From Patescibacteria group bacterium (GTDB taxonomy: Bacteria; Patescibacteriota; Patescibacteriia; Patescibacteriales; Patescibacteriaceae): a DNA stretch of 64,000 nt. Below the pieces are notes generated by a model. It ran no database searches. It was not told where the DNA came from and saw only the letters and a program-made list of their open reading frames with translations. Numbering within the stretch: position 1 is the first letter of the stretch; every line of letters starts with the position of its first letter. The DNA lies in NCBI GenBank assembly GCA_030583705.1, contig CP129471.1, forward strand, positions 50,506 to 114,505. Reading direction: 5' to 3'. The position numbers and the translations under genes were made by a program. Below, piece after piece: positions 4,336-45,773 of this stretch.

Positions 4336-5508
4336 ATGTTAGTATATATTTGTTATTTAATCAACTATTTTAATTATATGCCATTTTTTAAAAAATCCTC
4401 TATTAAAACTATTATTAACCCTAAAAGAGGATTTACTTTAATAGAGTTATTGGTAGTTATAGCCGTTATCGGGATTGTTTCAACTCTGGCTGTGGTGGCT
4501 TTAAATAATTCAAGAGCTAGTGCCAGAGACGCTAAGAGAATTTCCGACTTAAGACAAATTTCCTCAGCCCTTGAGCTTTATTATGCTAATAACCAACAAT
4601 ACCCGGCCTCTCTTAATTTTGGTGAGCCTTTGTCTGATGGAGAATTTGTCTACATGGAAAGCTTACCCAGTAACCCAACTCCTCGTACAGACGGTAATTG
4701 CCCTGATCTTGATTATTCCTACTATTCTTTGGGTAATGATTATTCCATTACGACTTGTTTGGGTTCACCTACACAACAAGCCAGTGTTTCAGCTTCACCT
4801 AGCTTTTCTTTGTCTTCTGCCGGAGATTTTCTTTGCGGGCAAATGATTTTTGATAGAGATGGTTATAATTATCCAACAGTACAGATTGGAGGGCAATGTT
4901 GGTTGGCCGAGAACTTAAAAACCAAAACCAAGGCTAATGGTGTTGCTTTAAGTAATCTATATAACGGTTCGGAAAGAGATTGTATAGCCTTGGGTGATGT
5001 AAGGGGTACGGAAGAAGATTGTTCGGCCGGTTATACTCTTTATTCTTGGGCAGCGTCTATGGACTTTGCTCCTTCTTGTAATTTAAACGATTGCCAAGCC
5101 AGTATTACTAGTCCGCACCAAGGTATTTGTCCAGATGGTTGGCATCTGCCGACAGATGATGAATGGCATACCTTGGAAATGTTTTTAAAGGATCCTGCTT
5201 CTACTTGTAACCCAACTCGTCCTGCTCATTGGCAATGTGGACCAGCTGGCGATAAGATGAAAGTTGGCGGTTCCGCTGGTTTTAACGGTATTATGGCTGG
5301 CAAAAGAGATACATTAGGGGATACTTTTGCTGCCAGACGAGAAGGAGCTCATTTTTGGTCTGCCAGCCAAAAACCAGATGATCCGCAAAACGGTGCTTTT
5401 CTTCGTTTAATGTGGCGTTCGGAAACCGGTGGTTGGGTTACTAATACGGTTGGTAGGACTGGTTTTGAAAAAAGAGACGGCTTATCTGTTCGTTGTGTTA
5501 AAAACTAG
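4336..5508 (+). CDS. secreted prepilin-type N-terminal domain fused to Cys-rich FISUMP-like domain (likely start at M 4378)
   Basis: Class III signal 'KRG|FTLIELLVVIAVIG', pilin alpha-1 helix and D-region 'DGNCPD..TCLGSP', then 'GGQCWLAENL', 'YSW', 'CPDGWHLPTDDEW', 'VRCVKN' (Fibrobacter succinogenes major paralogous domain pattern). Confidence 0.7.
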   Translation: MLVYICYLINYFNYMPFFKKSSIKTIINPKRGFTLIELLVVIAVIGIVSTLAVVALNNSRASARDAKRISDLRQISSALELYYANNQQYPASLNFGEPLSDGEFVYMESLPSNPTPRTDGNCPDLDYSYYSLGNDYSITTCLGSPTQQASVSASPSFSLSSAGDFLCGQMIFDRDGYNYPTVQIGGQCWLAENLKTKTKANGVALSNLYNGSERDCIALGDVRGTEEDCSAGYTLYSWAASMDFAPSCNLNDCQASITSPHQGICPDGWHLPTDDEWHTLEMFLKDPASTCNPTRPAHWQCGPAGDKMKVGGSAGFNGIMAGKRDTLGDTFAARREGAHFWSASQKPDDPQNGAFLRLMWRSETGGWVTNTVGRTGFEKRDGLSVRCVKN

Positions 5509-5527
5509 AGATTATTTTCTTTAGAGA

Positions 5528-5953
5528 TTATTTCCTACTATTTTGATTAATTAAAACTCCCAAGAAAGTTATTACCAAAATAATATTTTTTATAATATAC
5601 TGCCCGAAAAAGCTAGGTACTAAAGGAGCGTCCCAAGCGCTTTTTGGCAAAAGAACAAGAGGTCCGGTGGTGGTAATAATGTGAATTATAAAAAGGTAGG
5701 TTACAAACTTCGTCATTTTTGGTATTAAGAACAATATACCAATAATAACTTCAAAAAAACCATAAAGGATAAGAAAGAGGTTAAAGTCCATTATGTTTAT
5801 AGTGGCGTAAAAAAGCTCTTCTACTGCTCCCTCGGCCGGGGATACTCCAAAGATCTTTAAGGCTCCAAACCAAATATAAATCAGAGCCAAACCAACCCTA
5901 GCGGCTTTTTCATAATGAGAAAAATTAAGTTTTTTAATTATTTTTTCCAGCAT
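5528..5953 (-). CDS. DoxX/YkgB (DUF417)-like small membrane protein
   Basis: 4 TM; 'RVGLALIYIWFGALKIFG' resembles DUF417/DoxX N-terminal motif. Confidence 0.4.
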   Translation of the reverse strand: MLEKIIKKLNFSHYEKAARVGLALIYIWFGALKIFGVSPAEGAVEELFYATINIMDFNLFLILYGFFEVIIGILFLIPKMTKFVTYLFIIHIITTTGPLVLLPKSAWDAPLVPSFFGQYIIKNIILVITFLGVLINQNSRK

Positions 5954-6117
5954 ATTTTTAACATCTTAGTTTAGTATTATTAGCTACTGTCTATTATACA
6001 ACAAACTTTTGTTTGGAGCTATTTTTTAAAAGATATATTAAAGATATATTTATGCGCTTATCTAAGGCTTATTTTTGCTCTGTTTTTTTATTTTAGGCTG
6101 TGCTATAATGGCTTTAT

Positions 6118-6870
6118 ATGAAAACTGCTTATTCTCTTATTACCAAAGACATTATTCTTGATGAGCGGACAGTTAGGCCGCTTAAAGAATATATCTTAAA
6201 GATTAAGGACATGCCGTCCGATGACCGACCTAGGGAGAGGTTGGCTAAGCATGGCCCGTCTTCTTTATCTATTGCCGAATTAATGGCAATTATTTTAGGT
6301 AATGGCACTAAAAAAGAAGAGGTTATGGCGATGACCGCCAGAATAGTTAAAGAATATGGAGAGAAAGCTTTATCTAATCAGCAAAAGCCTAAGGTTTTGG
6401 CTGAAGAGTTGGATATACCCCTTGGTAAAGCTATGCAAATAGTAGCTTGTGCTGAACTTGGACGACGCTTTTTTGATAAACCGAGCCATGGTCCGGTGGT
6501 AATAAGAACTGCTAAGGATGTTTATGACTATTTAATAGATCTTCGTAATTTACCAAAAGAACATTTACGAGGTCTTTATCTTAACACTCACCATCGTTTA
6601 ATCCATGATGAAATTATTTCCATTGGTACAATTAACAGTAATCTAATTCATCCAAGAGAAGTCTTTAAACCGGCAGTGGAGTACGGGGCAGCGGCAGTGG
6701 TTTTAGCACATAACCATCCTTCCGGTATAGTAACTCCCAGTAAGGCGGATATAGAGATAACCAATCATGTAATTGCTGCTGGGGAGATTATTGGTATACC
6801 ATTAGTTGATCATGTTATTATTGGTCCAGATTCCTTTGCCAGTATAGAGGCGGATTATCGTCAAGCCTAA
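6118..6870 (+). CDS. radC: RadC-like JAB/MPN domain protein (UPF0758)
   Basis: JAMM motif 'HNHPSG..PS..D' (AVVLAHNHPSGIVTPSKADIEIT) and HhH-like N-terminal region. Confidence 0.75.
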   Translation: MKTAYSLITKDIILDERTVRPLKEYILKIKDMPSDDRPRERLAKHGPSSLSIAELMAIILGNGTKKEEVMAMTARIVKEYGEKALSNQQKPKVLAEELDIPLGKAMQIVACAELGRRFFDKPSHGPVVIRTAKDVYDYLIDLRNLPKEHLRGLYLNTHHRLIHDEIISIGTINSNLIHPREVFKPAVEYGAAAVVLAHNHPSGIVTPSKADIEITNHVIAAGEIIGIPLVDHVIIGPDSFASIEADYRQA

Positions 6871-6935
6871 AATAAACTTAAAGTACTATTGTTATTTTAA
6901 ACTCTCCAAAGCTTATTTAATTTAAAATTAAAATT

Positions 6936-7184
6936 ATGCGCCAGTATCTAATACAAGCGCCCTTCACCTCCATACCTACTAGTTTTACCCAAGGTCTTTT
7001 ATTAAGAGACGATCCTTCAGATATTTCTTCAAATGAAAGACATTTTTATGATCTTTATCATTTGTTTTTAAATAAGTTTGCACGTTTAACCTATAATGCC
7101 TCCTTAAAAGACGAAGAAGCCGAAATCTTAAAAGAAATGCTTAAAGATGTTCTTGAAGCCAAGAAGAGATTAGAAAGAGATTAA
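6936..7184 (+). CDS. hypothetical protein (82 aa)
   Basis: ORF only. Confidence 0.25.
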   Translation: MRQYLIQAPFTSIPTSFTQGLLLRDDPSDISSNERHFYDLYHLFLNKFARLTYNASLKDEEAEILKEMLKDVLEAKKRLERD

Positions 7185-7289
7185 GAAAGGCAGTTAAACT
7201 ATAATTTACTTTAAAATATATTGCCTAAAAAAATATTTTCATATATAATTGAATTTGTTTATTTTTAATATAGTTATTTTTTAAAACAT

Positions 7290-7769
7290 ATGAATGAAGA
7301 AAAAGAAGTAAAAGAAGTTTCAAATCCTGATTCTTCGTCTCGTTTTTTAATGTGGTTATTTGTGGCTTTAGTGCCAGCGGTGGTTATTGTCTATGCCGTT
7401 ATGAATCGTCCCAAACCGCAAGATCAGCTTTTGGTTGCAAATAGCAATGAACAAAATGTTATTACTGAAGAAAAATATCGGGATGGTAGATATGAGGTAA
7501 TTGGTGAATACATTGCTCCAAGCGGACTTGAACAAATTAATGTTTCTGTAGTGTTAAATGATGGAGTTATTACTGAGTCTGAAGTAGGGGCTTTATCCGG
7601 TCATCCGGTTTCTCTTAAATTACAAGAAGCTTTTATCGGTGGACATAATGAAGAAGTGGTTGGTAGAAACATTGATGAAGTTAATTTGGGTGTTATTGCC
7701 GGTTCTTCCTTAACTCCTCGTGGTTTTAATGATGCTTTGGAAAAGATTAAAGCTGAAGCTGCTTTGTAA
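7290..7769 (+). CDS. membrane-anchored FMN-binding (NqrC/RnfG-like FMN_bind) domain protein; candidate flavinylation site Thr in 'AGSSLTP'
   Basis: N-terminal single TM; 'RYEVIGEYIAPSGLEQINVSVVLNDGVITESEV' matches FMN_bind core pattern; C-terminal 'VNLGVIAGSSLTPRGF' aligns with the 'VDAVSGATxTS' flavinylation segment; sits immediately upstream of apbE. Confidence 0.45.
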   Translation: MNEEKEVKEVSNPDSSSRFLMWLFVALVPAVVIVYAVMNRPKPQDQLLVANSNEQNVITEEKYRDGRYEVIGEYIAPSGLEQINVSVVLNDGVITESEVGALSGHPVSLKLQEAFIGGHNEEVVGRNIDEVNLGVIAGSSLTPRGFNDALEKIKAEAAL

Positions 7770-7819
7770 TCATTATTTTTGTATTATTTTTTGCTTATTG
7801 ATTTTTATCTTTTTACTTA

Positions 7820-8701
7820 ATGGAATATTCTTCACATAATTTCTCTGCTATCGGTACTGACTGGACTATTGATCTGCCTTCTAATCTTTCTGCGGCTGAA
7901 CAAAGTTCTTTAGTGGAAAAATTAAAAGACAGACTTGAGCTTTTTGATTTTACTTATTCTCGTTTTAGGGCAGATTCAATTATTACTCTTTGGTCCAAAA
8001 AGGCCGGGCAATATCCTTTACCAGATGATGCCGGGCCTCTTTTGGCTTTATATGAAAAAGTATATTCTTTAACGGATGGCTTAGTTAATCCTTTAATTGG
8101 CAAAACCATTGCTTCGGCCGGTTATGACGCTAATTATTCTTTACGTGCATCTTCTGTTTTAGAAGAAACCCCTTCTTGGGAAGATGTTTTATCTATTGAT
8201 AAAGACTCCATTACTTTTAAAAAACCGGCGATACTTGATTTAGGGGCAGCTGGCAAAGGCTATGCCATTGATCTTTTGTCTGACATATTGACTGAACATG
8301 GGCTTGAATCTTTTATGATTAACGCCGGTGGAGATATTTTTCGTAAGGAAGAAACCGATAGTGTGGTACGGGTTGGCTTAGAAGATCCCCAAGATTCTTC
8401 CAAGGTAATTGGGGTAGCATCTTTACATAACGGCAGTCTTTGTGCCTCAGCCGGTAATCGTCGGGCCTGGCCAGGTTTTCATCATATTATTAACCCGAAA
8501 ACTAAAAAGTCTCCCCAAGATATTATAGCGGTTTGGGTTTCGGCCGAAACAGCCGCTTTAGCGGATATTTTAGCTACTGCTCTTTTCTTTTGTCCCCCAG
8601 AAAAACTTAAGACGACATATGATTTTGAATATGTTATAATTGGAAAAGATCGCTCGGTAAAATATTCCACTAATTTTAAGGGTGAGTTGTTTTTAAAATA
8701 G
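7820..8701 (+). CDS. apbE: FAD:protein FMN transferase ApbE (Ftp)
   Basis: 'YSRFRADSII' N-terminal motif and 'LDLGAAGKGYAIDLL' (GxxGKGYAxD) characteristic of ApbE. Confidence 0.75.
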   Translation: MEYSSHNFSAIGTDWTIDLPSNLSAAEQSSLVEKLKDRLELFDFTYSRFRADSIITLWSKKAGQYPLPDDAGPLLALYEKVYSLTDGLVNPLIGKTIASAGYDANYSLRASSVLEETPSWEDVLSIDKDSITFKKPAILDLGAAGKGYAIDLLSDILTEHGLESFMINAGGDIFRKEETDSVVRVGLEDPQDSSKVIGVASLHNGSLCASAGNRRAWPGFHHIINPKTKKSPQDIIAVWVSAETAALADILATALFFCPPEKLKTTYDFEYVIIGKDRSVKYSTNFKGELFLK

Positions 8702-8767
8702 TTATAATAGTCATAATTTTAAGATTAAGATATTGGTATTCTTAAGGTAATTTCTTAAAAGGTTTTT

Positions 8768-10240
8768 ATGTTAAAGGCCATAGATTCTTTTGTTAACCAA
8801 ATAACCATGTATCGCCTGGTTTTGTATGGACTGGTTATTTTAGCTACCTTATCTGTTATTCTCGGTTTTCTTAATGTGTTGCCTTACTCCGGTTTTGAAC
8901 TTTTAACTTCTTTACTTATTCTTTCTTTAGTTTGTTTTCTTGCCACCAAGATCCTTTCTCGTTTTTATAATGTTGAATCTTCAGTCATTACGGCTTTAAT
9001 CCTCTTTTTTATTTTTGAACCATCCATTGAAAAAACCGGACTTTTAACTTTGGCAGCTATTGGTTTAACGGCTGTTTTAAGTCGTTATATTTTAGCTTGG
9101 CGCGGAAAACATATCTTTAATCCGGCAGCTTTAGCGGCGGTAATTTTTGGTTTAACTGGTAGCGGTTTGGCAGTTTGGTGGGTTGGTAGCGAATTTTTAT
9201 TATTGCCTTCTCTTATTTTGGGCTTTTTGGTAACTAAAAAGATTAGACGAGCTTCTTTGGTTTCATCTTTCATTATTACCGCTACGGTTGTTATGTTAGT
9301 CATTACTTACTTCTCCGGTTATTCTCTAGTTGAAGCTCTAAGGGTTATCTTGTTCTCTTGGCCTCTTATTTTCTTTGCGACCATTATGTTAACTGAACCT
9401 CTAACTACACCGCCTCGTAAAGAAACTCAGTTAGCCTACGGGGTAATTGTTGGTTCGCTTTTTTCCGCCCAGTTTCATTTTGGTCCGATTTATCCGACAC
9501 CGGAGTTAGCTTTGGTTATAGGTAATATTTTTTCTTTTATTGTAAGCAATAAGGGACGATTTAATTTAAGATTGCGTCAAATAGTTAACCTAACACCCTC
9601 CATTAAAGAGTTTGTTTTTAGCCCAGATAAGCCTTTGGTTTTTTTATCGGGGCAATACATGGAATTTACGGTTCAGCCCAAGGGAGCAGATAACCGCGGT
9701 AATCGTCGTTATTTTACCTTAGCCTCTTCCCCAACCGAACAAGAAGCCAGGCTAGGTATTCGCTATAATCAACCCAGTAGTTCTTTTAAGGAAAAATTAA
9801 AATCTCTTAAACCAGGAGACAGAGTAGTGGCTACCCAGGCAATGGGTGATTTTATTTTACCAAAAGATTTATCCACCCCAATGATCTGGCTGGCTGGTGG
9901 TATAGGGATTACTCCTTTTCGTAGTATGGCTAAGTTTGTTTGTGATAATAAACAAACTCTGGATTGCTACCTTTTTTATCTGGCAGCTCAGCAAGAAGAT
10001 TTTGTTTATAGGGAAATTTTTGAAGAAGCGGCTAGTTATGGTCTTAAAACTTTTTACCTTGAAAGTACTAAGGACAAGCCTTTTGATTTTTCTCATTTAA
10101 GCGATTATGTTAAAGATTATGAAAAAAGGTTATTCTATATTTCCGGGCCTAATGGTTTAGTAGAGAGTTTTTCATCAGCGATTATTAAGAATGGTGTGTC
10201 CGGCAAACAAGTTATTAAGGATTATTTCCCTGGTTTTTAA
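8768..10240 (+). CDS. fusion of RnfD/NqrB-like membrane domain and ferredoxin-NADP reductase-like FAD/NAD(P)H-binding domain
   Basis: N-terminal ~260 aa polytopic domain with 'GKHIFNPAAL' (RnfD NPFNPA motif) and 'IMLTEPLTTPP' (cf. RnfD ILTDPVTASTT flavinylation site). C-terminal domain with 'RRYFTLASSP' (RxYS FAD motif) and 'GGIGITPFRSM' (NAD(P) binding). Confidence 0.6.
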   Translation: MLKAIDSFVNQITMYRLVLYGLVILATLSVILGFLNVLPYSGFELLTSLLILSLVCFLATKILSRFYNVESSVITALILFFIFEPSIEKTGLLTLAAIGLTAVLSRYILAWRGKHIFNPAALAAVIFGLTGSGLAVWWVGSEFLLLPSLILGFLVTKKIRRASLVSSFIITATVVMLVITYFSGYSLVEALRVILFSWPLIFFATIMLTEPLTTPPRKETQLAYGVIVGSLFSAQFHFGPIYPTPELALVIGNIFSFIVSNKGRFNLRLRQIVNLTPSIKEFVFSPDKPLVFLSGQYMEFTVQPKGADNRGNRRYFTLASSPTEQEARLGIRYNQPSSSFKEKLKSLKPGDRVVATQAMGDFILPKDLSTPMIWLAGGIGITPFRSMAKFVCDNKQTLDCYLFYLAAQQEDFVYREIFEEAASYGLKTFYLESTKDKPFDFSHLSDYVKDYEKRLFYISGPNGLVESFSSAIIKNGVSGKQVIKDYFPGF

Positions 10241-10254
10241 TTACCTTAAATATT

Positions 10255-11463
10255 ATGTCTACTGCGGCTAAACAGATAAAAGACAACTGTCTTTATTGCG
10301 GTAATAATCCGGTATCTCATCACTGGACTTGGTTTAATGAAACAATGGCTGTAATCTTTAATCCCCTTATTGCCTTCTTAACGGATAATTTTTTAATGCA
10401 AAGATTTAATCGTCTTTTTGATCATATTTTTTCTTTAGTTGGGAAAATTTTAGAAAAAGCCGGCTTTCTTTCTTACGTAAAAGAAAGACCAAATAAATTA
10501 AGTCATAGAACAGAAGTTTTATGGGATGAAGCGGATAGTCGCGGCTGGCGTTTTGAGCGGTTAATTTTTTTTGGGAAAGACCTAGACTATTACCGAGTTT
10601 TTGTTAAAAACGATCATCCAATTCTTTTTTCCGGATTACCAAGACCGCATTATATGCCGGGACTAGGAGATTGGTGGATAGATGATAAATACCTTGTTAA
10701 GAAGGTATTATCAGCTAAAGGCCTACCAATACCAAAAGGTGGAGGGTTTAGTAACTATAATTCATTGTTAAGAGTTTTTAAGAAATTAGATAAGCCAGTA
10801 ATTATTAAACCAAGATTGGGATCAAGGGGTAGACATACTACGACTTTTATAAATTCTGAAGAAGAGTTGTTTAAGGCCTATAAAAGAGCTAAACAACTTT
10901 GTTATTGGGTAATTATGGAAGAACACCTAATAGGTGATGTCTATCGCGGTACTATGATAGGTAGTAAGTTAGTTGGAGTATTAAGTGGTAATCCACCAAG
11001 AATCACCGGAGATGGCCAAAGCACTATCCTACAACTAATTGATCTTAAAAACCAAAACAGACACGAGGGAGTTAGTGTTTTTGTTCCCTCAGATTATACT
11101 AAAGAGTTTTTAAAAAAAATCGGTTATAATCTTAATTCAGTTTTACCTATGGGTACAACCATTGACCTAACCGAAAAGATAGGTGTTTCATATGGAGGCT
11201 CAAGTGCTGAAGTAACACAACAAACGCATCCTAAGATTAAAGATATTCTAGAACAGGCGGCTAAAGCTATTGGTGACCCGATGATTGGCTTTGATTTTAT
11301 TATAAAAGACATTAGCGCTGACCCGGATAACCAAAAATGGGGAATTATTGAATGTAATGGATTGCCCTTTATAAACCTACATCATGACCCAATAGAAGGA
11401 CCACCCATTAACGCAGCCGCTGCAGTCTGGGATTTTGTAGAAAACAATCTTAATTATTATTAA
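10255..11463 (+). CDS. ATP-grasp family protein (RimK/cyanophycin-synthetase-N-terminal-like) with Cys/His-rich N-terminus
   Basis: 'DDKYLVKKVLSAKGLPIPKG', 'VIIKPRLGSRGRHTTTF', 'EEHLIGDVYRG', 'GIIECNGLPF' consistent with ATP-grasp fold; N-terminal 'CLYCGNNPVSHHW'. Confidence 0.5.
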   Translation: MSTAAKQIKDNCLYCGNNPVSHHWTWFNETMAVIFNPLIAFLTDNFLMQRFNRLFDHIFSLVGKILEKAGFLSYVKERPNKLSHRTEVLWDEADSRGWRFERLIFFGKDLDYYRVFVKNDHPILFSGLPRPHYMPGLGDWWIDDKYLVKKVLSAKGLPIPKGGGFSNYNSLLRVFKKLDKPVIIKPRLGSRGRHTTTFINSEEELFKAYKRAKQLCYWVIMEEHLIGDVYRGTMIGSKLVGVLSGNPPRITGDGQSTILQLIDLKNQNRHEGVSVFVPSDYTKEFLKKIGYNLNSVLPMGTTIDLTEKIGVSYGGSSAEVTQQTHPKIKDILEQAAKAIGDPMIGFDFIIKDISADPDNQKWGIIECNGLPFINLHHDPIEGPPINAAAAVWDFVENNLNYY

Positions 11464-11556
11464 TATAATTGCTTAAAACAACCCTAAATGGTATCATAAT
11501 AATATAGATAAATTGCCTTTTAAAAGAGTATTTTTAGCTTCAATTTTAGTCATACT

Positions 11557-12831
11557 GTGATGCTATATAAAAATAAAGAGAATCAAGAAAAAAAGAAAAC
11601 ACCTCAACCATTTGAGGTGTTTAATAGTGGGTTAAATATTGAGTTAAATAGTATGTTAAATAGAAACTTAAACACTAGATTATACAGCAGCAAAGCCTTT
11701 ACTACACAATATAATAAAACAGCAAAAGCCTTCACCCTCATTGAACTATTAGTAGTTATAGCCATCATAGGTATATTATCCACTCTAGTAATAGTAGCTC
11801 TAGGCAATTCACGAGCAGGTGCCAGAGACGCTAAAAGACTAAATGATCTAAAAGCCATGGCTAATGCTCTAGAGCTATATTATGCAGATAATAACTCATA
11901 CCCTGAAGCAGATAACTTTTCTCCTGGAGCTACTTTTGAAGCCGGTGGAGTAGTTTATATGGGCAAAGTACCCAATAACCCTACTCCTCATACAGACGGA
12001 GGTTGTCCAGATAATGATTATACTTATACTCAAATAGAATCAGGACAAAGTTACATTATCTCAACTTGTCTTGGTACTCCAGCAGATAATTCTCCTTATC
12101 CTTCCTCAACTGCTGTTTCATACTCTCCCTCAGGTATGTTTCAATGTGGACAGAACATGGAAGACTTAAGAGATAATAAAACTTATCAAACTGTCCAAAT
12201 TGGTAACCAATGTTGGATGAAAGAAAACTTAGCTTATCTACCATCAGTTAGTCCATCCACTGCGGGTGACGCTTCAATTCCTTATTACTATGTTTATAAT
12301 TATCAGGGTACAGATGTTCAGGCAGCTAAAGTCACCGCTAATTACACTACTCATGGGGCTCTCTATAACTGGCCAGCGGCTACCACCGCTTGTCCTATCG
12401 GCTGGAAACTTCCTACTGATGAAGAATTTAATGTCTTGGAACAATATACTGTAGCGACGATTGCTAGCACTGCCACCCAATATGCTTGTAATACTTCAGT
12501 TACTAGTTGGCCAAGATGTGCGGATAATCTTAATGGAGATCAGGGTGGAACTTTTGGGGTTGGTAAATCTCTAAAGAAAGCTGGACAAGGATCAGGTATT
12601 GGAGCTGGCGATGATTTAGTTGGTTTTTCCGCTATGTTATCTGGCTCTCGTGCCACCTCTTCTGGAGGTATTTTTGCTAATATGCCTGTTTACGGCCTTT
12701 TTTGGTCAGCCCCGCAGTCTACCTCGACTGAAGCTTGGAGTCGGCTTCTGCTCTCCACTTATTCGACAATCTATCGAGGTGCGCTTAATAAAGCTAGTGG
12801 TTATACAGTCCGTTGCCTCAAAGATTCTTAA
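11557..12831 (+). CDS. secreted prepilin-type N-terminal domain fused to FISUMP-like domain, paralog of 4336..5508 (likely start at M 11653)
   Basis: 'AKA|FTLIELLVVIAIIG', 'DGGCPDNDYTYT..STCLGTP', 'GNQCWMKENLAY', 'ALYNWPAA', 'CPIGWKLPTDEEF', 'YTVRCLKDS'. Confidence 0.7.
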   Translation: MMLYKNKENQEKKKTPQPFEVFNSGLNIELNSMLNRNLNTRLYSSKAFTTQYNKTAKAFTLIELLVVIAIIGILSTLVIVALGNSRAGARDAKRLNDLKAMANALELYYADNNSYPEADNFSPGATFEAGGVVYMGKVPNNPTPHTDGGCPDNDYTYTQIESGQSYIISTCLGTPADNSPYPSSTAVSYSPSGMFQCGQNMEDLRDNKTYQTVQIGNQCWMKENLAYLPSVSPSTAGDASIPYYYVYNYQGTDVQAAKVTANYTTHGALYNWPAATTACPIGWKLPTDEEFNVLEQYTVATIASTATQYACNTSVTSWPRCADNLNGDQGGTFGVGKSLKKAGQGSGIGAGDDLVGFSAMLSGSRATSSGGIFANMPVYGLFWSAPQSTSTEAWSRLLLSTYSTIYRGALNKASGYTVRCLKDS

Positions 12832-12945
12832 TTATAATTATTTATCATATCCATATTTACTTGGTACGGTAAAGGTGTTTTTATTTAATTGATATAATCT
12901 CTTTTAAATGCTATACTTTCTTTGTATTAATTTTATTTCTAAGTT

Positions 12946-15522
12946 ATGGCCAGACGTCGTAAGAAAAAAAGCAGTCCGCTAGATTATATAGCCTTTTCCG
13001 GGTTAACCTCTTTAAGTCCTGAAGCTAAAAAGAGCCTCTGGACAGTCTTGTTATTGGCTTTGGGTTTAATCTCTCTTTTAAGTCTTTTTGGTCTTGGGGG
13101 TGAGGTTGGTCTTTATTTTGTTAAAATAATGACTTGGTTATCTGGATGGGGTAAGTGGCTTATCCCTTTTCTTTTGTTTTTATCTGCCTGGTTTGTTTAC
13201 CAAAAAGATACCTACGAGATTACCGCCTTTAACTATCTTGGTATGTTTATTTTCCTTTGGTCTTTCCAAGGTTTATTGCATATCTTTATTGAAGTAGAAC
13301 AATGGTCTAGTTCTTTGGAAAGCGGTGTTGGTGGGGGAAGATTGGGTTGGTCTTTAGCTGCACTGGTTATTCATTTTTTTGATTTTTGGGTTGGTTTAAT
13401 CGCTATTATGACTTTGTTTGTTATAGGTTTAATTTTAATGTTCAATACCAATCTATCTACACTCTTTAAGAAAGGTGCTTGGCCGGCTAAAATACTTTTA
13501 GCGCCCTTCGGTCTTTTTAGAAGACGCTTAGATAATGACAAAGATGAAGAATCCGAAGATGATGAGGAAGAGATTGAAGATGAACAGCCAGAAATTGAAG
13601 AATTAGATGAGAAACAAAGCTTAGATGATTCTTTTAGTTTACGTAGTTTAAGAGATATTATTTCTCCCAGACAAGCGGCGATTGAAAAAGGTAAGGGCGA
13701 GAAAGTTAACGAAGGTCGTTGGAAGCCTTCGCATGTTTCCATAGACTTACCTTTAGATCTTTTAGATAGCCGAAACTCTAAACCAACAGCTGGAGATATA
13801 AAAAGCAACACTGAGATAATTAAAAGTACTTTAGAGAAGTTTGGTATTCCAGTGGAGATGGGAGATGTTAGTGTTGGTCCAACTGTTACCCAATATACTC
13901 TTAAGCCTGATGAAGGAATTAAATTATCAAGGATTACCGCCCTAAACAATGACCTTTCCATGTCCTTAGCCGCCCACCCCGTCCGTATTGAAGCCCCTAT
14001 TCCGGGTAAGTCTTTAGTTGGTATAGAGGTGCCCAATCGCACAGTGGCGACTGTCGGTTTAAGAGAAATTCTTGAAGCTAAAGAGTTTAAGACTCGTTCC
14101 AATAATTTAATGATGGCTCTTGGTAAAGACGTGTCCGGCGAGGTTTGGCTTGATAGTGTTTCTAAAATGCCTCATTTATTGGTAGCTGGTGCCACAGGTT
14201 CTGGTAAGTCGGTGATGTTAAATACTATTATAGTAACTCTCCTTTACCAAAATAACCCAGATGATTTAAGGTTTATCATGGTTGACCCTAAAAGAGTGGA
14301 ATTAACCGTCTATAACGGTCTACCTCATCTTTTAACTCCGGTTATTACTGAAGTTTCAAAAACCATTAACGCCTTAAAGTGGTGTCTTAATGAAATGGAC
14401 AGGCGTTTTGAAACTTTAGCAGCAGCTCATAAAAGAGATATTGCCGGTTATAATCAGAATGCCAAAGAGAAGATGCCCTACATTGTTTTTATTATAGACG
14501 AGTTAGCAGATCTAATGGTAGTAGCCGCTAAAGACATGGAAGCTGGCATCGTTCGTTTATCTCAGATGGCCAGAGCTGTGGGTATTCATTTGGTTTTAGC
14601 TACTCAAAGACCCAGCGTTAATGTTATTACTGGTACGATTAAAGCTAACATGTCGGCTCGTATCGCCTTTTCGGTAACTTCGGGTATTGATTCCAGAACT
14701 ATTCTAGACTCTTTAGGTGCAGAAAAACTTCTAGGTAGAGGAGATATGCTTTTTTCCAACACTTCATTAACTAAACCCAAACGTATCCAGGGTGCTTTAA
14801 TTAGTGATAAAGAAATTAAAAAGATAGTTGATTACATTAAAGAAAGATCTGGTGAACCTTCATATATTAGCGAAATTGTTGAAAGACAAAAAGTTAAAGG
14901 AATGGCCGGTGTTGGTATTGATGGTGGCTCTGACGATGACGATGAATTATTCCAAGAAGCCAAAGAGCTAATTATTAACTCAGGTAAAGCTTCAGCTTCA
15001 TATCTGCAAAGAAGGTTATCTATTGGTTATGCTCGCGCGGCTAGACTTTTGGACTTACTAGAAGAGTCCGGTATTATTGGGCCATCTAATGGTGCTAAAG
15101 CCAGAGAGATAATGGTTAGTAAGGAGGAGTATGAAGCCATAGTAGATCAAGGGGTAGCCGGTGCTAGACTCCATGACCAGGCAAGTTTTAAAGCGCCGGA
15201 TAACTACTTAGAAGATGATGAAGAATCTAATGAAGACGAGGAAGACGAAGAAGAGGATGAAGAAGAGGATAAAGAAGATGAAGAACAAGAAGAGGAAGAG
15301 AAAGAAATTAGTATTAAAAAAGCTGACGTAGAAATAAATGAAGATGACTCTCAATTTGAAGATGATCAAGAAGAAGAGGAAGTTGAAGAGGTTGAGGATG
15401 AACAGCCAGAAGAAGATGATTTAGAAGATCTAGAGCAAGAAGTAGATAATAACAAGACTAAAAACAAAGGAAAGGACTCATCTAATAATTCTCCTGATTT
15501 TAATAAATACTATTCCAGATAG
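12946..15522 (+). CDS. ftsK: DNA translocase FtsK with long acidic C-terminal tail
   Basis: N-terminal TM domain, Walker A 'GATGSGKS', 'FIIDELADLM', gamma domain 'ASASYLQRRLSIGYARAARLLDLLEESGII', then ~140 aa Asp/Glu-rich tail. Confidence 0.85.
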   Translation: MARRRKKKSSPLDYIAFSGLTSLSPEAKKSLWTVLLLALGLISLLSLFGLGGEVGLYFVKIMTWLSGWGKWLIPFLLFLSAWFVYQKDTYEITAFNYLGMFIFLWSFQGLLHIFIEVEQWSSSLESGVGGGRLGWSLAALVIHFFDFWVGLIAIMTLFVIGLILMFNTNLSTLFKKGAWPAKILLAPFGLFRRRLDNDKDEESEDDEEEIEDEQPEIEELDEKQSLDDSFSLRSLRDIISPRQAAIEKGKGEKVNEGRWKPSHVSIDLPLDLLDSRNSKPTAGDIKSNTEIIKSTLEKFGIPVEMGDVSVGPTVTQYTLKPDEGIKLSRITALNNDLSMSLAAHPVRIEAPIPGKSLVGIEVPNRTVATVGLREILEAKEFKTRSNNLMMALGKDVSGEVWLDSVSKMPHLLVAGATGSGKSVMLNTIIVTLLYQNNPDDLRFIMVDPKRVELTVYNGLPHLLTPVITEVSKTINALKWCLNEMDRRFETLAAAHKRDIAGYNQNAKEKMPYIVFIIDELADLMVVAAKDMEAGIVRLSQMARAVGIHLVLATQRPSVNVITGTIKANMSARIAFSVTSGIDSRTILDSLGAEKLLGRGDMLFSNTSLTKPKRIQGALISDKEIKKIVDYIKERSGEPSYISEIVERQKVKGMAGVGIDGGSDDDDELFQEAKELIINSGKASASYLQRRLSIGYARAARLLDLLEESGIIGPSNGAKAREIMVSKEEYEAIVDQGVAGARLHDQASFKAPDNYLEDDEESNEDEEDEEEDEEEDKEDEEQEEEEKEISIKKADVEINEDDSQFEDDQEEEEVEEVEDEQPEEDDLEDLEQEVDNNKTKNKGKDSSNNSPDFNKYYSR

Positions 15523-15616
15523 TTATTGTAGGATAGATAGTGAGATATTGTTAGTTATTAAGATATTGAATGATAAAGGATTAAGAAGATATTAAATTTT
15601 ATTTTCATATAAAAAA

Positions 15617-15658
15617 ACAATTCCCGAGTTGATCTCAAGAATTGTTTTTTTTGATTCC
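15617..15658. terminator. bidirectional hairpin terminator (aacaattc..gaattgtt + T8)
   Basis: 8-bp stem with 14-nt loop followed by T-run, between convergent ftsK and DUF378 genes. Confidence 0.4.
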
Positions 15659-15897
15659 TAATCTTTTTTACCCCAAGTAAACAGAGCGTAAAGGGCCGAC
15701 AAACCTACTAGGATGTAGATTACTCTAGCTACAGCTTCGGTTAGAAAGCTTGCAAGATCCCAGCCGGTAAAAAGTCCAACTAGAAGCCAGTTAAGACCTC
15801 CGATAATCAATAGGACTTGGGCTAGTCTATTTAAATTCATATGTGTGTTTATTACATTAGTAAAGTATCTGAAATGGCTTCGACCTTTATATCTCAA
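15658..15897 (-). CDS. DUF378-like small membrane protein
   Basis: 'IIGGLNWLLVGLF' matches DUF378 'IGALNWGLVG' signature; 2 TM. Confidence 0.55.
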   Translation of the reverse strand: MRYKGRSHFRYFTNVINTHMNLNRLAQVLLIIGGLNWLLVGLFTGWDLASFLTEAVARVIYILVGLSALYALFTWGKKD

Positions 15898-16253: not shown

Positions 16254-17146
16254 AACTCTCATATCTCTATGATGTATTTAAGCAACATATTAAATCCTAT
16301 AAGTGGCTAGCGCTTTCTTGTTTGTTTGCGTAGAGGCCGCTTAACAAGCGGTTTTTTTGTTCCCTTAAAAGTATTTTGTCCGCTCGCGGAATTGTTACTT
16401 CGGTAATAATTCCACGACCGTATAAAATACGGTTACCTTAAAAATTGAACACGCGAATAAAGTAACTGTAATTTTGTAAGTTAAGAGTCCAATTAATGAT
16501 GATCTGCATTTTTGAAAACAAAGATGTAGGAAAATCTCGTAAGGGTGTATGGTGGATGCCTTGACTCAAGAAGACGATGAAGGACGTAGCAGTCTGCGAT
16601 AAGCCTCGGTTAGGTGACAAGCAACCTTTGACCCGGGGATTTCCGAATGGGGAAACCTATCCTGTTGAAGACAGGATGTCCGCATGCTGAACACATAGGC
16701 ATGTGAGACGAGTACTCGGTGAACTGAAACATCTTAGTAGCCGAAGGAAAAGAAAACAAATTTAATCTTTTATCAAGATTGACGATTTTTCGTCTGTTTT
16801 GATAAGAGATTGCGATTCCCTGAGTAGTGGCGAGCGAAAGGGGAGCAGCCTAAACCGTTTAGACCATATATACTGGACTCACTTCGGTGAGAAAAGTATG
16901 TTGAAGGAATTAGGTCCATATGTTTTTACGGTGTTGTAAGAGTGCCATGATTGCTACCTAATGCGGCAAGACGGCGCTATTGAATTATTAGTCGAAGGAG
17001 CTGGAAAGCTCGGCCAAAGACGGTGATAGCCCGGTAGACGAAAATAAGACAGGCGTTGTGATGGCAAATCTTAAGTACTGCGGGACTCGTGAAATTCCGT
17101 GGGAAGCAGGGTCGACTATGACCCAAGGCTAAATACTTCTTGAGAT

Positions 17147-17183
<37 letters not shown>

Positions 17184-18692: not shown

Positions 18693-19408
18693 AGAAGCTT
18701 AGGACGACCCTTTGGGTTTAAGCGTTGTAGTTACGTTAAAAAATCTGACTATATGCTGGAAACTCCCGTTAGACAAGCGGTACTCGGTTAAACACCAGTG
18801 AAAATCCGTTTGGTAGGGACAATCAGCAGGAAAGCTAATACTATGTTAAATATACAAAATATTCCGGACCGTATAGGCTATTATTTAGCCGGTTTTACGG
18901 ACGGAGAAGGTAGTTTTATGGTAGTGGTTCGTAATCGCCCGGATTTTCGGGCCGGTTATAAAGTTTCTCTTTGTTTTAATGTTTCTCAGAAAGAAAGTTA
19001 TATTCTTTCTCAGTTTAAAAAACATTTAGCTTGCGGAACTTTAAGATCACGACCTGATGGAGTCTGGTATTTTGAAGTTAATAACTTCAAGGCTATCAGT
19101 GAAAACATCATTCCTTTTTTTGATCGATTTGGTTTTTTGTCGCAAAACAAGAAAAAGCAATACGCTTTATTTAAGCGAGCGGCTTATATTATAAAAACTG
19201 AAACTCATTTGACCTTAGAGGGTTTTCAAAAAATTCTCTTAATACGAAGTCAAATGAATCGTGGTGGAAAAAGAAAAAACTTAGCATCCTCAGAGACTAT
19301 ACGTCAGACCCGTTTACGGGAAGATATAGTCCGACCTTCAGTGAAAGCTGAAGAGCTCAGCAGAAATGTTTGAGCCACTTAACGGCAACGTTAAGGAGTA
19401 ACAAGATG
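18693..19408 (+). mobile_element. group I intron in 23S rRNA (near E. coli position ~1917) carrying a LAGLIDADG homing endonuclease ORF
   Basis: Exon sequence GTAACTAT^AACGGTCC interrupted; 5' exon ends in U, intron ends in G; contains 'gactatatgctggaaactc' core also seen in the 16S intron 1. Confidence 0.7.
18798..19373 (+). CDS. LAGLIDADG homing endonuclease (intron-encoded; probable true start M 18843)
   Basis: 'YLAGFTDGEGSFMVVV' LAGLIDADG motif; located wholly within 23S intron. Confidence 0.75.
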   Translation: MKIRLVGTISRKANTMLNIQNIPDRIGYYLAGFTDGEGSFMVVVRNRPDFRAGYKVSLCFNVSQKESYILSQFKKHLACGTLRSRPDGVWYFEVNNFKAISENIIPFFDRFGFLSQNKKKQYALFKRAAYIIKTETHLTLEGFQKILLIRSQMNRGGKRKNLASSETIRQTRLREDIVRPSVKAEELSRNV

Positions 19409-19422
19409 AACGGTCCTAAGGT

Positions 19423-19749: not shown

Positions 19750-19797
<48 letters not shown>

Positions 19798-20289: not shown

Positions 20290-20322
<33 letters not shown>

Positions 20323-20332
20323 GTGGAGAAGC

Positions 20333-20385
<53 letters not shown>

Positions 20386-45738: not shown

Positions 45739-45773
<35 letters not shown>

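What the first reader, a model, noticed from the sequence alone, without database searches (positions are those of the whole stretch)
4336..12831. Two paralogous prepilin::FISUMP-domain fusion proteins bracketing the flavinylation module
ORFs 4336..5508 and 11557..12831 both begin with a class III prepilin signal ((K/A)[GA]|FTLIELLVVIA), pilin alpha-1 helix and disulfide D-region (DG[NG]CPD..TCLG[ST]P). They then continue into a Cys-rich domain with the hallmarks of the 'Fibrobacter succinogenes major paralogous' domain (GxQCW[LM][AK]ENL, YxW, CP[DI]GW[HK]LPTD[DE]E[WF], [YV]RC[LV]K). This would place a FISUMP-like disulfide-rich module on (or at the tip of) a type IV pilus or pseudopilus, which suggests a host/substrate-binding adhesin for an episymbiotic lifestyle. 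Paralog 2 has Ala rather than Gly at -1 of the cleavage site. This particular fusion may be uncharacterised.
Basis: partly seen in the sequence, partly recalled or inferred. Interest (0 to 1): 0.7.

Follow-up and report, generated by a model that had tools for sequence, protein, structure and literature searches.

The report
Lectin-headed type IV pilins in CPR bacterium
Two genes in this small-genome (CPR/Patescibacteria-type) bacterium encode pilus subunits that carry a disulfide-rich, lectin-like head. They are probably surface adhesins, but hundreds of related bacteria have the same design and it is already listed in a published survey, so this is a clean but ordinary example.

Summary
**Observation: confirmed.** Both ORFs exist at the stated coordinates.
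- TIGR02145/PF09603 (FISUMP): 100–109 bits, well above the cut-offs.
- TIGR02532/PF07963 (prepilin signal): above the cut-offs.
- The two are 38% identical over the whole mature length.

**Not new.**
- More than 100 Patescibacteria homologs carry both domains and are already auto-annotated as such.
- Raynaud et al. 2021 list IPR012902–IPR011871 as the fifth most common "modular pilin" architecture.
- Ala at −1 occurs in 31 of 105 relatives.

**What I add.**
- One relative is a DGR target. Its variable region (VR) differs from the template repeat (TR) at 22 positions, 21 of them TR adenines, and a bAvd gene is adjacent. The VR maps to the last ~60 residues.
- The window has no TR and no reverse transcriptase.
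- ORF1's position beside the RadC–ApbE block is conserved in only one lineage.
- ORF2's N-terminal extension probably reads through a repeated palindrome; its likely start is 11653.

**Verdict:** new member of a known kind; low to moderate interest.

The parts
4336..5508 (+). Paralog 1: prepilin::FISUMP modular pilin. Longest ORF is 390 aa; the probable true start is ATG 4378. The mature protein is 358 aa, 38.8 kDa, pI 4.9, with 12 Cys.
   Evidence: ORF. TIGR02145 102.7 bits and TIGR02532 35.1 bits. PF09603 100 bits and PF07963 34.9 bits. AF2 pLDDT 88.2. Candidate starts and mass.
4378..4431 (+). Paralog 1 class III (prepilin) leader, MPFFKKSSIKTIINPKRG. The predicted PilD cleavage is after Gly32 (numbering of the long ORF). 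The mature N-terminus is FTLIE, with Phe+1 and Glu+5.
   Evidence: Motif scan. N_methyl hit on residues 29–52. Leaders in the family are mostly 5–12 aa. The start choice is inferred: starting at 4336 would leave only 39 bp to the divergent DHODH gene that begins at 4296.
4432..4758 (+). Paralog 1 pilin module: α1 helix (modelled residues 35–86) plus a small β head ending in the conserved Cys122…Cys141 pair (D-region-like).
4759..4833 (+). Paralog 1 Ser/Ala/Pro-rich inter-module linker (LGSPTQQASVSASPSFSLSSAGDFL).
   Evidence: This is the only internal segment with pLDDT <50 (155–162). High column entropy and gaps. Sequence.
4834..5505 (+). Paralog 1 FISUMP (Fib_succ_major) module, residues 167–390, with a C-type-lectin-type fold and 10 Cys.
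5296..5496 (+). Paralog 1 region equivalent to the DGR variable region of relatives (residues 321–387). It is the most variable stretch of the family and the presumed ligand-binding surface.
   Evidence: Alignment to the L085 VR. Highest entropy blocks are 331–340 and 371–380. Identity to the closest homologs is 21–32% here, against 50–58% elsewhere.
11557..12831 (+). Paralog 2: prepilin::FISUMP modular pilin. Longest ORF is 424 aa from GTG; the probable true start is ATG 11653. The mature protein is 366 aa, 39.0 kDa, pI 4.8, with 8 Cys.
11597..11622 (.). 26-nt palindrome AAACACCTCAA-CCAT-TTGAGGTGTTT inside the annotated 5' extension of paralog 2. It is one of three copies in the window and argues that codons 1–32 are not translated.
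   Evidence: 3 matches against 0 expected in 100 shuffles; the other copies are at 27079–27104 and 60135–60160. Terminator-like on the − strand. Sequence context.
11653..11730 (+). Paralog 2 probable leader, MLNRNLNTRLYSSKAFTTQYNKTAKA (26 aa). The predicted cleavage is after Ala58 (long-ORF numbering). The mature N-terminus is FTLIE.
   Evidence: Motif scan. N_methyl hit on residues 54–78. Ala at −1 in 31 of 105 homologs. Start inferred.
11731..12069 (+). Paralog 2 pilin module (α1 helix 61–112, β head, conserved Cys150…Cys171). This is the "constant stalk": 74–94% identical to six of seven paralogs (55% to P0047) of a related genome.
   Evidence: AF2. Region-wise identities. Cys conservation.
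12070..12144 (+). Paralog 2 Ser/Pro-rich linker (LGTPADNSPYPSSTAVSYSPSGMFQ).
   Evidence: Sequence. pLDDT dips to about 80–84 across residues 171–200.
12145..12828 (+). Paralog 2 FISUMP / C-type-lectin-fold module (residues 197–424). This is the "variable head": only 37–57% identical to the same relatives. The VR-equivalent stretch is 12622–12816.

Best explanation
Both genes encode bimodular ("modular") type IV pilins of a Patescibacteria/CPR bacterium.

**Likely mechanism.**
1. Each precursor carries a class III signal peptide. A prepilin peptidase, encoded outside this window, would cut after Gly (paralog 1) or Ala (paralog 2) and N-methylate Phe+1.
2. The hydrophobic α1 helix with Glu+5 first anchors the subunit in the membrane. 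It then docks the subunit into the core of a type IV filament.
3. A ~25-residue Ser/Pro/Ala linker holds a ~225-residue FISUMP module away from the filament. This module is Cys-rich and therefore extracytoplasmic and disulfide-stabilised.
4. The FISUMP module has the C-type-lectin fold of the FGE / DGR-variable-protein subclass. Its last ~60 residues form the variable ligand-binding face.
5. A bulky head fits poorly in the filament body, and relatives encode separate ~147-aa pilins next to PilC. The two proteins are therefore most likely low-abundance, tip-located or sparsely incorporated adhesin subunits. They would bind a glycan or protein on another cell or surface, which is plausibly how the bacterium attaches to a host.

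**Relationship of the two genes.** They are old paralogs (38% identity) from different subfamilies. Paralog 1 is a positional ortholog conserved beside a RadC–ApbE block in one related lineage. Paralog 2 belongs to a subfamily with a conserved stalk and a divergent head.

**Shown:** domain architecture, fold, family distribution, and DGR targeting of one relative.

**Inferred:** cleavage, filament incorporation, minor-pilin status and ligand binding.
For: **Architecture.**
- HMM hits above curated cut-offs for both modules in both proteins.
- Full-length paralogy.
- High-confidence AF2 models with a low-confidence linker.

**Fold.**

**Ligand-binding face.**
- In relative L085/L086 a 412-aa N_methyl+FISUMP protein is followed by bAvd.
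- That locus has a 179-nt VR/TR pair with 22 differences, 21 of them at TR adenines. The TR has 15 AAY codons and 16 residues are changed.
- The VR covers the last ~58 residues up to GFSVRC.
- The homologous stretch is the most variable part of the family.

**Minor, modular pilin.**
- L169 has PilC (T2SSF) plus two 147-aa pilins ~10 kb from a FISUMP pilin.
- L167 has a tandem array of six modular pilins, four with FISUMP and two with LamG modules.
- The pilin module is 74–94% identical to six of seven paralogs of a related genome, while the head is 37–57% identical.

**Precedent.**
- S. sanguinis PilB and PilC are modular pilins. PilC's lectin module binds glycans, and PilA, PilB and PilC are modelled as a tip complex.
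- Saccharibacteria have lectin-like minor pilins PilX1 and PilX2, and PilX2 is needed for efficient host binding.
- Fib_succ_major, DUF1566 and DUF823 are treated as one CLec2 DGR-target class, exemplified by the surface protein LdtA.
Against: - No pilus machinery (PilB/C/D/M/T) and no small major pilin lie in the 64-kb window. Filament assembly therefore cannot be tied to these genes here.
- Only 1 of ~12 contexts in relatives has machinery within 10 kb.
- No solved structure matches the FISUMP module by sequence, even with a family profile. Foldseek found nothing for it.
- No ligand can be named.
- The organism's lifestyle (episymbiont or not) is not established from this window.
Confidence: 0.65

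Rival explanations
1. The class III signal peptide is used only as a membrane anchor or export route. The lectin-headed proteins would sit on the cell surface or in a short pseudopilus, as with the archaeal "bindosome" sugar-binding proteins that carry prepilin-type signals, or with Com/T2SS-like pseudopili. They would not be presented on long type IV pili.
For: - The genes are scattered among housekeeping genes and are usually far from pilus machinery.
- The N-terminal module scores best, though below cut-off, against GspG-type pseudopilin models: TIGR01710 at 40.6 and 43.9 bits.
- It also hits EpsG and PulG structurally.
- Multi-copy repertoires (at least 7 in one genome) resemble families of surface binding proteins.
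- The bindosome analogy rests on my own knowledge, not on a tool result.
Against: - The pilin module is complete: α1, β head and a conserved Cys pair. It is under stronger constraint than the head (74–94% against 37–57%), as expected if it must fit a filament lattice.
- Characterised modular pilins with the same design are filament subunits.
- GspG membership fails the curated cut-off of 88.85 bits.
Confidence: 0.2
2. The two window genes are themselves active DGR targets. A reverse transcriptase, Avd and template repeat located elsewhere in the genome would hypermutate them in trans.
For: - A close architectural relative is a genuine DGR target with the VR in the homologous C-terminal stretch.
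- In that relative no RT lies within 10 kb of the TR, so trans arrangements occur.
- The FISUMP/DUF1566 class is a known DGR target class.
- DGRs are enriched in CPR.
Against: - blastn with word size 7 of both genes against the whole 64-kb window finds no second copy of either 3' end.
- No RT-like ORF was found. The only YxDD hit is in a LAGLIDADG ORF.
- Among 154 FISUMP ORFs in 170 sequences (the window plus 169 fetched loci), only L085/L086 showed an adenine-biased repeat.
- Paralog 1 diverges from its positional ortholog P0010 (46%) at about the same rate as the neighbouring ApbE (50%) and RnfD-FNR (47%), so it is not hypervariable as a whole.
Confidence: 0.08
3. The pilin genes are functionally coupled to the genes they bracket. 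The ApbE-dependent flavinylated RnfD/FNR-type membrane redox module, together with DoxX or DsbD-type proteins, would supply extracytoplasmic redox power for oxidative folding or isomerisation of the Cys-rich pilin heads.
For: - The order pilin – (DoxX or DsbD_TM-thioredoxin) – RadC – small ORF – ~160–180-aa protein – ApbE – RnfD/NAD_binding_1 – ATP-grasp – FtsK is conserved between the window and L084. Neighbour identity is only 38–70%.
- A DsbD–thioredoxin fusion directly follows the pilin in L084, and a DsbA-like gene directly precedes the pilin in L169.
- The mature proteins have 12 and 8 Cys.
Against: - Equally close homologs of paralog 1 (P0002, P0006, P0019) lie in unrelated contexts with no ApbE or Dsb genes.
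- ApbE linkage is seen in one lineage only, so shared descent explains it.
- In the window DoxX is on the opposite strand and scores only 26.7 bits against a cut-off of 23.6.
- RadC, ATP-grasp and FtsK have no obvious link to either function.
Confidence: 0.07

Closest known systems
Modular type IV pilins, architecture IPR012902–IPR011871 (Raynaud et al. 2021, PNAS, PMC8179133)
   Same: Same design: an N-terminal prepilin motif and small pilin module, a short linker, then a grafted module that is not specific to pilus biology. The survey lists this exact InterPro pair as the fifth most frequent modular-pilin architecture (40 proteins). Several of the 15 representative proteins come from CPR lineages.
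   Different: The survey only lists the architecture and calls the extra domain "no clear function". It gives no fold assignment, DGR link or genomic context. That IPR011871 is the Fib_succ_major entry rests on my own knowledge; I could not verify it in the library.
Streptococcus sanguinis PilC (lectin module) and PilB (vWA module) minor pilins
   Same: These are experimentally characterised bimodular pilins whose grafted module mediates adhesion. PilC's lectin module binds glycans. PilA, PilB and PilC are modelled as a tip complex. This is the best working model for how the window proteins would function.
   Different: The grafted folds differ: ConA-like/LamG and vWA there, FISUMP/C-type-lectin fold here. 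The phylum differs. No sequence homology beyond the α1 helix.
Saccharibacteria (Nanosynbacter lyticus TM7x) minor pilins PilX1 and PilX2
   Same: Patescibacteria minor pilins with large lectin-like C-terminal domains. PilX2 is required for efficient host binding and competitive fitness.
   Different: PilX1 has a β-jelly-roll module and PilX2 a β-propeller, not FISUMP. Both lack a predicted PilD signal, whereas the window proteins have canonical G/A|FTLIE sites.
DGR variable proteins of the C-type-lectin fold: TvpA (2y3c), TaqVP (5vf4), Mtd (1yu0), and Legionella LdtA (CLec2, DUF1566/Fib_succ_major class)
   Same: TvpA is the best structural neighbour of both models. The VR sits at the extreme C-terminus and ends in a G-x-S/T-V-R-C-type motif. 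One pilin::FISUMP relative has an adenine-specific VR/TR pair plus bAvd. The FISUMP/DUF1566 class is recognised as a DGR target class.
   Different: The window genes have no TR, RT or Avd nearby. The known proteins are lipoproteins or phage fibre proteins, not pilins. According to Roux et al. 2021, CPR DGR targets usually show no recognisable anchoring domain.
Fibrobacter/Bacteroidota FISUMP (TIGR02145) paralogous lipoproteins
   Same: The same C-terminal domain family, at 28–41% identity to paralog 2 over ~220 residues, with the same Cys pattern and motifs.
   Different: Those proteins use lipoprotein or Sec signals and are often multi-domain or tandem. Here the domain is grafted onto a pilin. 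The function is unknown in both cases.
Legionella Lcl C-terminal domain (8q4e) and Bdellovibrio Bd2740 fibre-tip domain (8oks)
   Different: They are presented on a collagen-like stalk or a trimeric fibre rather than on a pilin, and have about half the size of the FISUMP module. Their biological roles as I describe them rest on my own knowledge.

Membership tests
Type IV pilin / prepilin (TIGR02532, PF07963) | Profile match to the N-terminal cleavage/methylation motif above the curated cut-off | tested here: met
   TIGR02532: 35.1 and 27.6 bits against 16.3. PF07963: 34.9 and 29.8 bits against 21.2.
Type IV pilin / prepilin (TIGR02532, PF07963) | Basic leader ending in Gly (or Ala) at −1, Phe at +1, Glu at +5, and a ~20-residue hydrophobic α1N | tested here: met
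   KRG|FTLIELLVVIAVIGIVSTLAVVAL and AKA|FTLIELLVVIAIIGILSTLVIVAL. Ala at −1 in 31 of 105 relatives.
Type IV pilin / prepilin (TIGR02532, PF07963) | Pilin fold: a long α1 helix packed on a β-sheet head | tested here: met
Type IV pilin / prepilin (TIGR02532, PF07963) | Processing by a prepilin peptidase and assembly by a PilB/PilC-type machine | not testable with these tools
   No such genes lie in the 64-kb window. The rest of the genome is unavailable. One relative (L169) has T2SSF/PilC ~10 kb away.
FISUMP / Fib_succ_major domain (TIGR02145, PF09603) | Profile match above the curated cut-off, covering the whole domain | tested here: met
   TIGR02145: 102.7 and 101.6 bits against 41.65, profile positions 3–176 and 2–176 of 176. 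PF09603: 100 and 109.2 bits against 33.9, positions 1–187 of 187.
FISUMP / Fib_succ_major domain (TIGR02145, PF09603) | Conserved cysteines suggesting extracytoplasmic disulfides | tested here: met
   C167, C188, C216, C229, C265 and C387 are invariant or ≥90% conserved in 108 sequences. The disulfides themselves are inferred.
FISUMP / Fib_succ_major domain (TIGR02145, PF09603) | Lipoprotein signal, typical of the Fibrobacter and Bacteroidota members | tested here: not met
   It is replaced by a prepilin signal. This is a usual accompaniment of the family, not a defining feature of the domain.
Modular pilin (sensu Raynaud et al. 2021) | A pilin module plus an extra, independently folding domain not specific to pilus biology, joined by a short linker | tested here: met
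   Two high-confidence modules separated by a low-pLDDT Ser/Pro linker. Architecture listed.
C-type-lectin fold (FGE / DGR-variable-protein subclass) | Structural similarity of the C-terminal module to solved members | tested here: met
C-type-lectin fold (FGE / DGR-variable-protein subclass) | Demonstrated carbohydrate or other ligand binding | not testable with these tools
   Requires recombinant protein and binding assays.
DGR target (variable protein) | A VR paired with a TR that differs almost only at TR adenines | tested here: not met
   Window: no second copy of either 3' end. Relative L085/L086: met, with 21 of 22 differences at TR adenines.
DGR target (variable protein) | A DGR reverse transcriptase and Avd nearby | tested here: not met
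   No RT-like ORF in the window. In L085 bAvd is present (41.1 bits against a cut-off of 40) but no RT lies within 10 kb.
T2SS major pseudopilin GspG (TIGR01710, PF08334) | Equivalog score above the curated cut-off | tested here: not met
   TIGR01710: 40.6 and 43.9 bits against 88.85, matching only the first ~62 positions. PF08334: 13.7 and 15.3 bits against 21.

The most novel reading that the evidence does not exclude
Pilin::FISUMP proteins could be the pilus-displayed host-recognition repertoire of non-Saccharibacteria CPR bacteria. A conserved pilin "stalk" would carry interchangeable C-type-lectin-fold "heads". These heads would diversify by paralog expansion and module divergence and, in some genomes, by DGR hypermutation. 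That would make a type IV pilus subunit a DGR target and would explain how some CPR DGR targets are anchored. The window's two genes would be the non-mutagenised, vertically inherited members of this repertoire, and they would set which host surface the cell can attach to.
Probability: 0.3. Interest if true: 0.55.

Novelty: new member of a known kind. Interest (0 to 1): 0.3.

Why it matters
How ultrasmall CPR/Patescibacteria cells find and hold on to partner cells is largely unknown outside a few cultivated Saccharibacteria. There, lectin-like minor pilins matter for host binding.

The two genes here are clean, full-length examples of an abundant but experimentally untouched class: a pilin with a C-type-lectin-fold head. 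The by-product findings give concrete handles for experiments:
- the fold assignment;
- the location of the probable binding face, the last ~60 residues;
- the "constant stalk, variable head" pattern;
- a relative in which this face is hypermutated by a DGR.

They also offer one answer to the published puzzle that CPR DGR targets seem to lack any anchoring domain.

None of this makes the window locus itself unusual. The architecture is already catalogued and auto-annotated.

Tried and rejected
1. **DGR in the window: rejected.** No TR-like copy of either gene's 3' end and no RT ORF. A scan of all 170 sequences found an adenine-biased repeat only in L085/L086.
2. **Genome-contig scan with paralog 2.** It was dominated by Bacteroidales FISUMP proteins picked up through the QCWMxEN word. 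Only L005 (Nealsonbacteria) matched from the pilin module onward, and it was not confirmed as a fused ORF in the HMM scan. The close relative on the 869,590-bp contig was not retrieved.
3. **Metagenome-contig scan with the family alignment.** It was not usable as a sample of fused loci.
4. **Exact-protein look-ups** for P0038, P0045 and paralog 2 found nothing on record. The DNA of paralog 2's closest relatives could therefore not be examined.
6. **PDB sequence and profile searches** found no solved FISUMP domain.
7. **Functional meaning of "bracketing": not supported.** Synteny with the RadC–ApbE block holds in one related lineage but not for equally close homologs elsewhere.
8. **Ala at −1 as an anomaly: rejected**.
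9. **The conserved long N-terminal extension of paralog 2 as a real long leader: judged unlikely.** It coincides with a repeated palindrome and models as disorder. The palindrome was not found at exact match in the 169 fetched loci.
10. **Literature gaps.** IPR011871 occurs in no other held paper. Paul et al. 2017 (CPR DGRs) is not held.

Full report
**1. The observation**

The two ORFs are present exactly where stated: 4336..5508 (+, 390 aa) and 11557..12831 (+, 424 aa). A six-frame motif scan finds prepilin-type cleavage motifs only in these two ORFs: KRG|FTLIELLVVIA and AKA|FTLIELLVVIA.

Both tests were run and both favour the finding.
- NCBIfam TIGR02145 (Fib_succ_major/FISUMP) scores 102.7 and 101.6 bits against a cut-off of 41.65 and covers essentially the whole 176-position profile.
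- TIGR02532 (prepilin N-terminal domain) scores 35.1 and 27.6 bits against 16.3.
- Pfam agrees: PF09603 at 100 and 109 bits, PF07963 at 34.9 and 29.8 bits.
- The two proteins align from the cleavage site to the last residue at 38% identity (E = 2e-69). They are true but old paralogs.

**2. Structure**

AlphaFold2 with family alignments gives confident models: paralog 1 has pLDDT 88.2 and pTM 0.70; paralog 2 has pLDDT 85.1 and pTM 0.70. Both show the same anatomy:
- a ~50-residue α1 helix;
- a small β-sheet head ending at a conserved Cys pair (C122/C141 in paralog 1, C150/C171 in paralog 2);
- a Ser/Pro/Ala-rich linker, which includes the only internal low-confidence segment of paralog 1;
- a compact ~225-residue module modelled at pLDDT >90.

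- Then the Bdellovibrio Bd2740 fibre-tip domain, TaqVP, Mtd, invasin/intimin-type domains and dozens of canonical animal C-type lectin domains.

**3. How common is it?**

A search of the 5.8-billion-protein collection returned 746 hits at E ≤ 1e-5 among the 8000 candidates scored. Nearly all of the top 120 carry both PF09603 and PF07963. The sources already name them [quoted passage not shown], "FISUMP domain-containing protein" or "TIGR02145 family/prepilin-type…". The named organisms are Candidatus Falkowbacteria and "Patescibacteria group bacterium". One 869,590-bp contig carries at least seven paralogs and a 621,653-bp contig at least four.

In the literature, Raynaud et al. 2021 surveyed "modular pilins" in InterPro. 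They list IPR012902–IPR011871 as the fifth most frequent architecture (40 proteins) and count IPR011871 among the domains with "no clear function". That IPR011871 is the Fib_succ_major entry is my own recollection; I could not confirm it in the library. The architecture is therefore catalogued. I found no experimental work on it.

**4.

- **Ala at −1.** Among 105 homologs with a recognisable site, 74 have Gly and 31 have Ala. Ala is a normal family variant.
- **ORF1 start.** Beginning at ATG 4336 would leave only 39 bp to the divergently transcribed DHODH gene (start 4296). ATG 4378 gives an 18-residue leader, closer to the 5–12 residues typical of the family.
- **ORF2 start.** The first 32 codons include a perfect 11-bp-stem palindrome (11597–11622). 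It recurs at 27079–27104 and 60135–60160, with conserved stems and different loops. That is 3 matches against 0 expected in 100 shuffles.
- **The "conserved" N-terminal peptide.** The peptide shared with P0038 and P0044 (…KxPQxFEVFN…) is the translation of this palindrome. Residues 1–58 model at pLDDT ~50. ATG 11653 (26-residue leader) is therefore the likelier start.

**5. Surroundings**

Between the two genes lie:
- DoxX (− strand, 26.7 bits);
- RadC;
- an 82-aa ORF;
- a 159-aa protein with no Pfam hit;
- ApbE (139 bits);
- a 490-aa RnfD/NqrB-like plus NAD_binding_1 protein;
- an ATP-grasp protein.

FtsK and DUF378 follow. There is no pilus machinery and no other pilin anywhere in the window.

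The window has CPR hallmarks:
- 16S and 23S rRNA genes about 25 kb apart;
- both interrupted by insertions carrying LAGLIDADG ORFs;
- low GC and a reduced gene set.

**6. Is the "bracketing" meaningful?**

The block pilin – X – RadC – small ORF – ~160–180-aa protein – ApbE – RnfD/NAD_binding – ATP-grasp – … – FtsK recurs in L083/L084 (a 483,745-bp JGI contig). There X is a DsbD_TM–thioredoxin fusion, and paralog 2 is absent. Identities to the window are RadC 70%, ATP-grasp 57%, ApbE 50%, FtsK 49%, RnfD-FNR 47%, pilin 46% and the 159-aa protein 38%. Paralog 1 thus behaves as a positional ortholog evolving at about the pace of its neighbours. Paralog 2 is an insertion relative to that genome.

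Equally close homologs of paralog 1 sit in unrelated places:
- a tandem array of six modular pilins, four FISUMP and two LamG, flanked by glycosyltransferases (L167);
- among assorted small unrelated genes (L170);
- between tmk and gatB (L171).

Other family members lie next to dnaN (L085), next to the S12/S7 operon (L172), or alone (L168).

Tally over about 12 independent contexts:

| Linked feature | Contexts | Loci |
|---|---|---|
| ApbE block | 2 (one lineage) | window, L084 |
| Dsb-type neighbour | 2 | L084, L169 |
| Pilus machinery within 10 kb | 1 | L169: T2SSF, two 147-aa pilins, minor-pilin-like genes |
| DGR | 1 | L085/L086 |
| Other modular-pilin or FISUMP genes adjacent | 3 | L080, L084, L167 |

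The bracketing is a lineage-specific positional fact. A redox or disulfide-folding link is not excluded but is weakly supported.

**7. The DGR lead**

DGR surveys treat Fib_succ_major, DUF1566 and DUF823 as one C-type-lectin "CLec2" target class. They report 43 FISUMP-annotated targets in freshwater and wastewater MAGs, with a GspG-type pilin domain "scarcely represented".

In L085/L086 (a 599,753-bp ENA contig), a 412-aa N_methyl+FISUMP protein (PF09603 113 bits, PF07963 29 bits) is followed by a bAvd gene (41.1 bits against a cut-off of 40). A 179-nt repeat of the gene's 3' end follows that.
- The two copies differ at 22 positions, 21 of them adenines in the downstream copy (A>G 11, A>T 9, A>C 1).
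- The template has 15 AAY codons among 59, and 16 residues are changed.
- The identical 3' end encodes …GFSVRC.
- No reverse transcriptase lies within 10 kb.

So in at least one Patescibacteria genome a pilin::FISUMP protein has been mutagenised by a DGR. Its VR maps onto residues ~321–387 of paralog 1 and ~356–420 of paralog 2.

That stretch is also the most variable in the family. Its identity to paralog 1's closest homologs is 21–32%, against 50–58% for the rest.

In paralog 2's subfamily the pilin module is 74–94% identical to six of seven paralogs of a related genome (55% to P0047). The FISUMP module is only 37–57% identical to the same relatives; for P0048 the figures are 94% and 39%. 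This is a "constant stalk, variable head" pattern.

The window itself has no TR and no RT. A scan of 154 FISUMP ORFs in all 170 sequences found the adenine bias only in L085/L086. DGR targeting is therefore occasional in this family and is not shown for these two genes.

Roux et al. 2021 note that CPR DGR targets typically lack recognisable transmembrane or conserved domains. The L085 case shows one way such a target can be anchored.

**8. Mechanism and rivals**

The best-supported reading is that both genes encode modular type IV pilins. They would be cleaved and methylated at G/A|F and inserted through α1 into a type IV filament. Most likely they are minor, tip-located or sparse subunits that present a disulfide-stabilised C-type-lectin-fold head, whose C-terminal face binds a ligand on another cell or surface.

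Experimental precedent:
- S. sanguinis PilB and PilC are modular pilins. PilC's lectin module binds glycans, and PilA, PilB and PilC are modelled as a tip complex.
- Saccharibacteria have PilX1 and PilX2, and PilX2 is needed for efficient host binding.

Cleavage, filament incorporation, minor-pilin status and ligand binding are all inferred. The architecture, fold and family distribution are shown.

Rivals:
- membrane-anchored or pseudopilus display without long pili (confidence about 0.2);
- trans-acting DGR mutagenesis of these very genes (about 0.08);
- functional coupling with the flanked redox genes (about 0.07).

**9. Verdict**

The fusion is an abundant, already catalogued and auto-annotated architecture, so the locus is a new member of a known kind.

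The added value lies in:
- the fold assignment;
- the mapping of the probable binding face;
- the constant-stalk, variable-head pattern;
- the DGR-targeted relative;
- the corrected start sites.

Interest: 0.3.

Noticed in passing
window 11597-11622, 27079-27104, 60135-60160: A 26-nt palindrome, AAACACCTCAA-N4-TTGAGGTGTTT, occurs three times against 0 expected in 100 shuffles. The stems are conserved and the loops differ (CCAT, TAGG, GAGC). All copies are intergenic or at the 5' edges of genes: pilin 2, a PHP-like gene on the − strand, and upstream of lepA. Its translation (…PQxFEVFN…) also appears in the called N-termini of P0038 and P0044 in a related genome, so the element seems conserved upstream of orthologous pilin genes. 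It could be a terminator/REP-like element or an operator; this is undecided.
   Followed up: partly
L085:17709-19726 (also L086:11583-13611): A DGR cassette in a Patescibacteria contig whose target is a prepilin::FISUMP protein. The VR is 18755-18933 and the TR is 19548-19726. 21 of the 22 differences are at TR adenines. bAvd lies at 19028-19375. No reverse transcriptase lies within 10 kb. This is a pilin-anchored DGR target in CPR, where targets are reported usually to lack recognisable anchoring domains.
   Followed up: yes
window 4336-15897 compared with L084:10001-21059: A ~11-gene block is syntenic between the window and a JGI contig at only 38–70% protein identity: pilin, DoxX or DsbD-thioredoxin, RadC, a small ORF, a ~160–180-aa protein, ApbE, RnfD/NqrB-like+NAD_binding_1, ATP-grasp, FtsK and DUF378. 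Paralog 2 is absent from the other genome.
   Followed up: partly
L084:11065-12705; L169:8890-9630; window 5528-5953 (-): Thiol-redox genes lie directly beside Cys-rich FISUMP pilin genes in several genomes: a DsbD_TM–thioredoxin fusion (L084), a DsbA-like protein (L169), and a weak DoxX match in the window. This may reflect oxidative folding needs of the pilin heads, or it may be chance. No statistics were done.
   Followed up: no
L167:8928-15283: A back-to-back array of six modular pilin genes in a Candidatus Falkowbacteria genome (GCA_026396835.1). Four are N_methyl+FISUMP and two are N_methyl+Laminin_G_3. This suggests interchangeable lectin-type heads on similar stalks. L080–L082 likewise have an N_methyl+Laminin_G_3 pilin ~7 kb from a FISUMP pilin, plus a FISUMP-only gene.
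   Followed up: partly
window 16529-20861 and 45741-49000: The 23S rRNA spans 4151 nt against a 2925-position model. Its insertion carries a LAGLIDADG ORF (18798-19373). The 5S rRNA follows. The 16S rRNA is ~25 kb away and split by insertions with LAGLIDADG ORFs (46374-46979, 48374-48811). Five tRNAs lie at 49255-49670. Unlinked, intron-bearing rRNA genes are typical of CPR bacteria.
   Followed up: partly
window 21582-24686 (-): A 1034-aa predicted surface protein with four Lamin Tail Domains (179 bits), a PKD domain and an acidic low-complexity stretch. From the translation it also has a probable C-terminal membrane anchor. It is another candidate cell-surface or adhesion protein in the same window.
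   Followed up: no
It does have a 38%-identical counterpart at the same position in L084. Its FMN-binding nature is unverified.
   Followed up: partly
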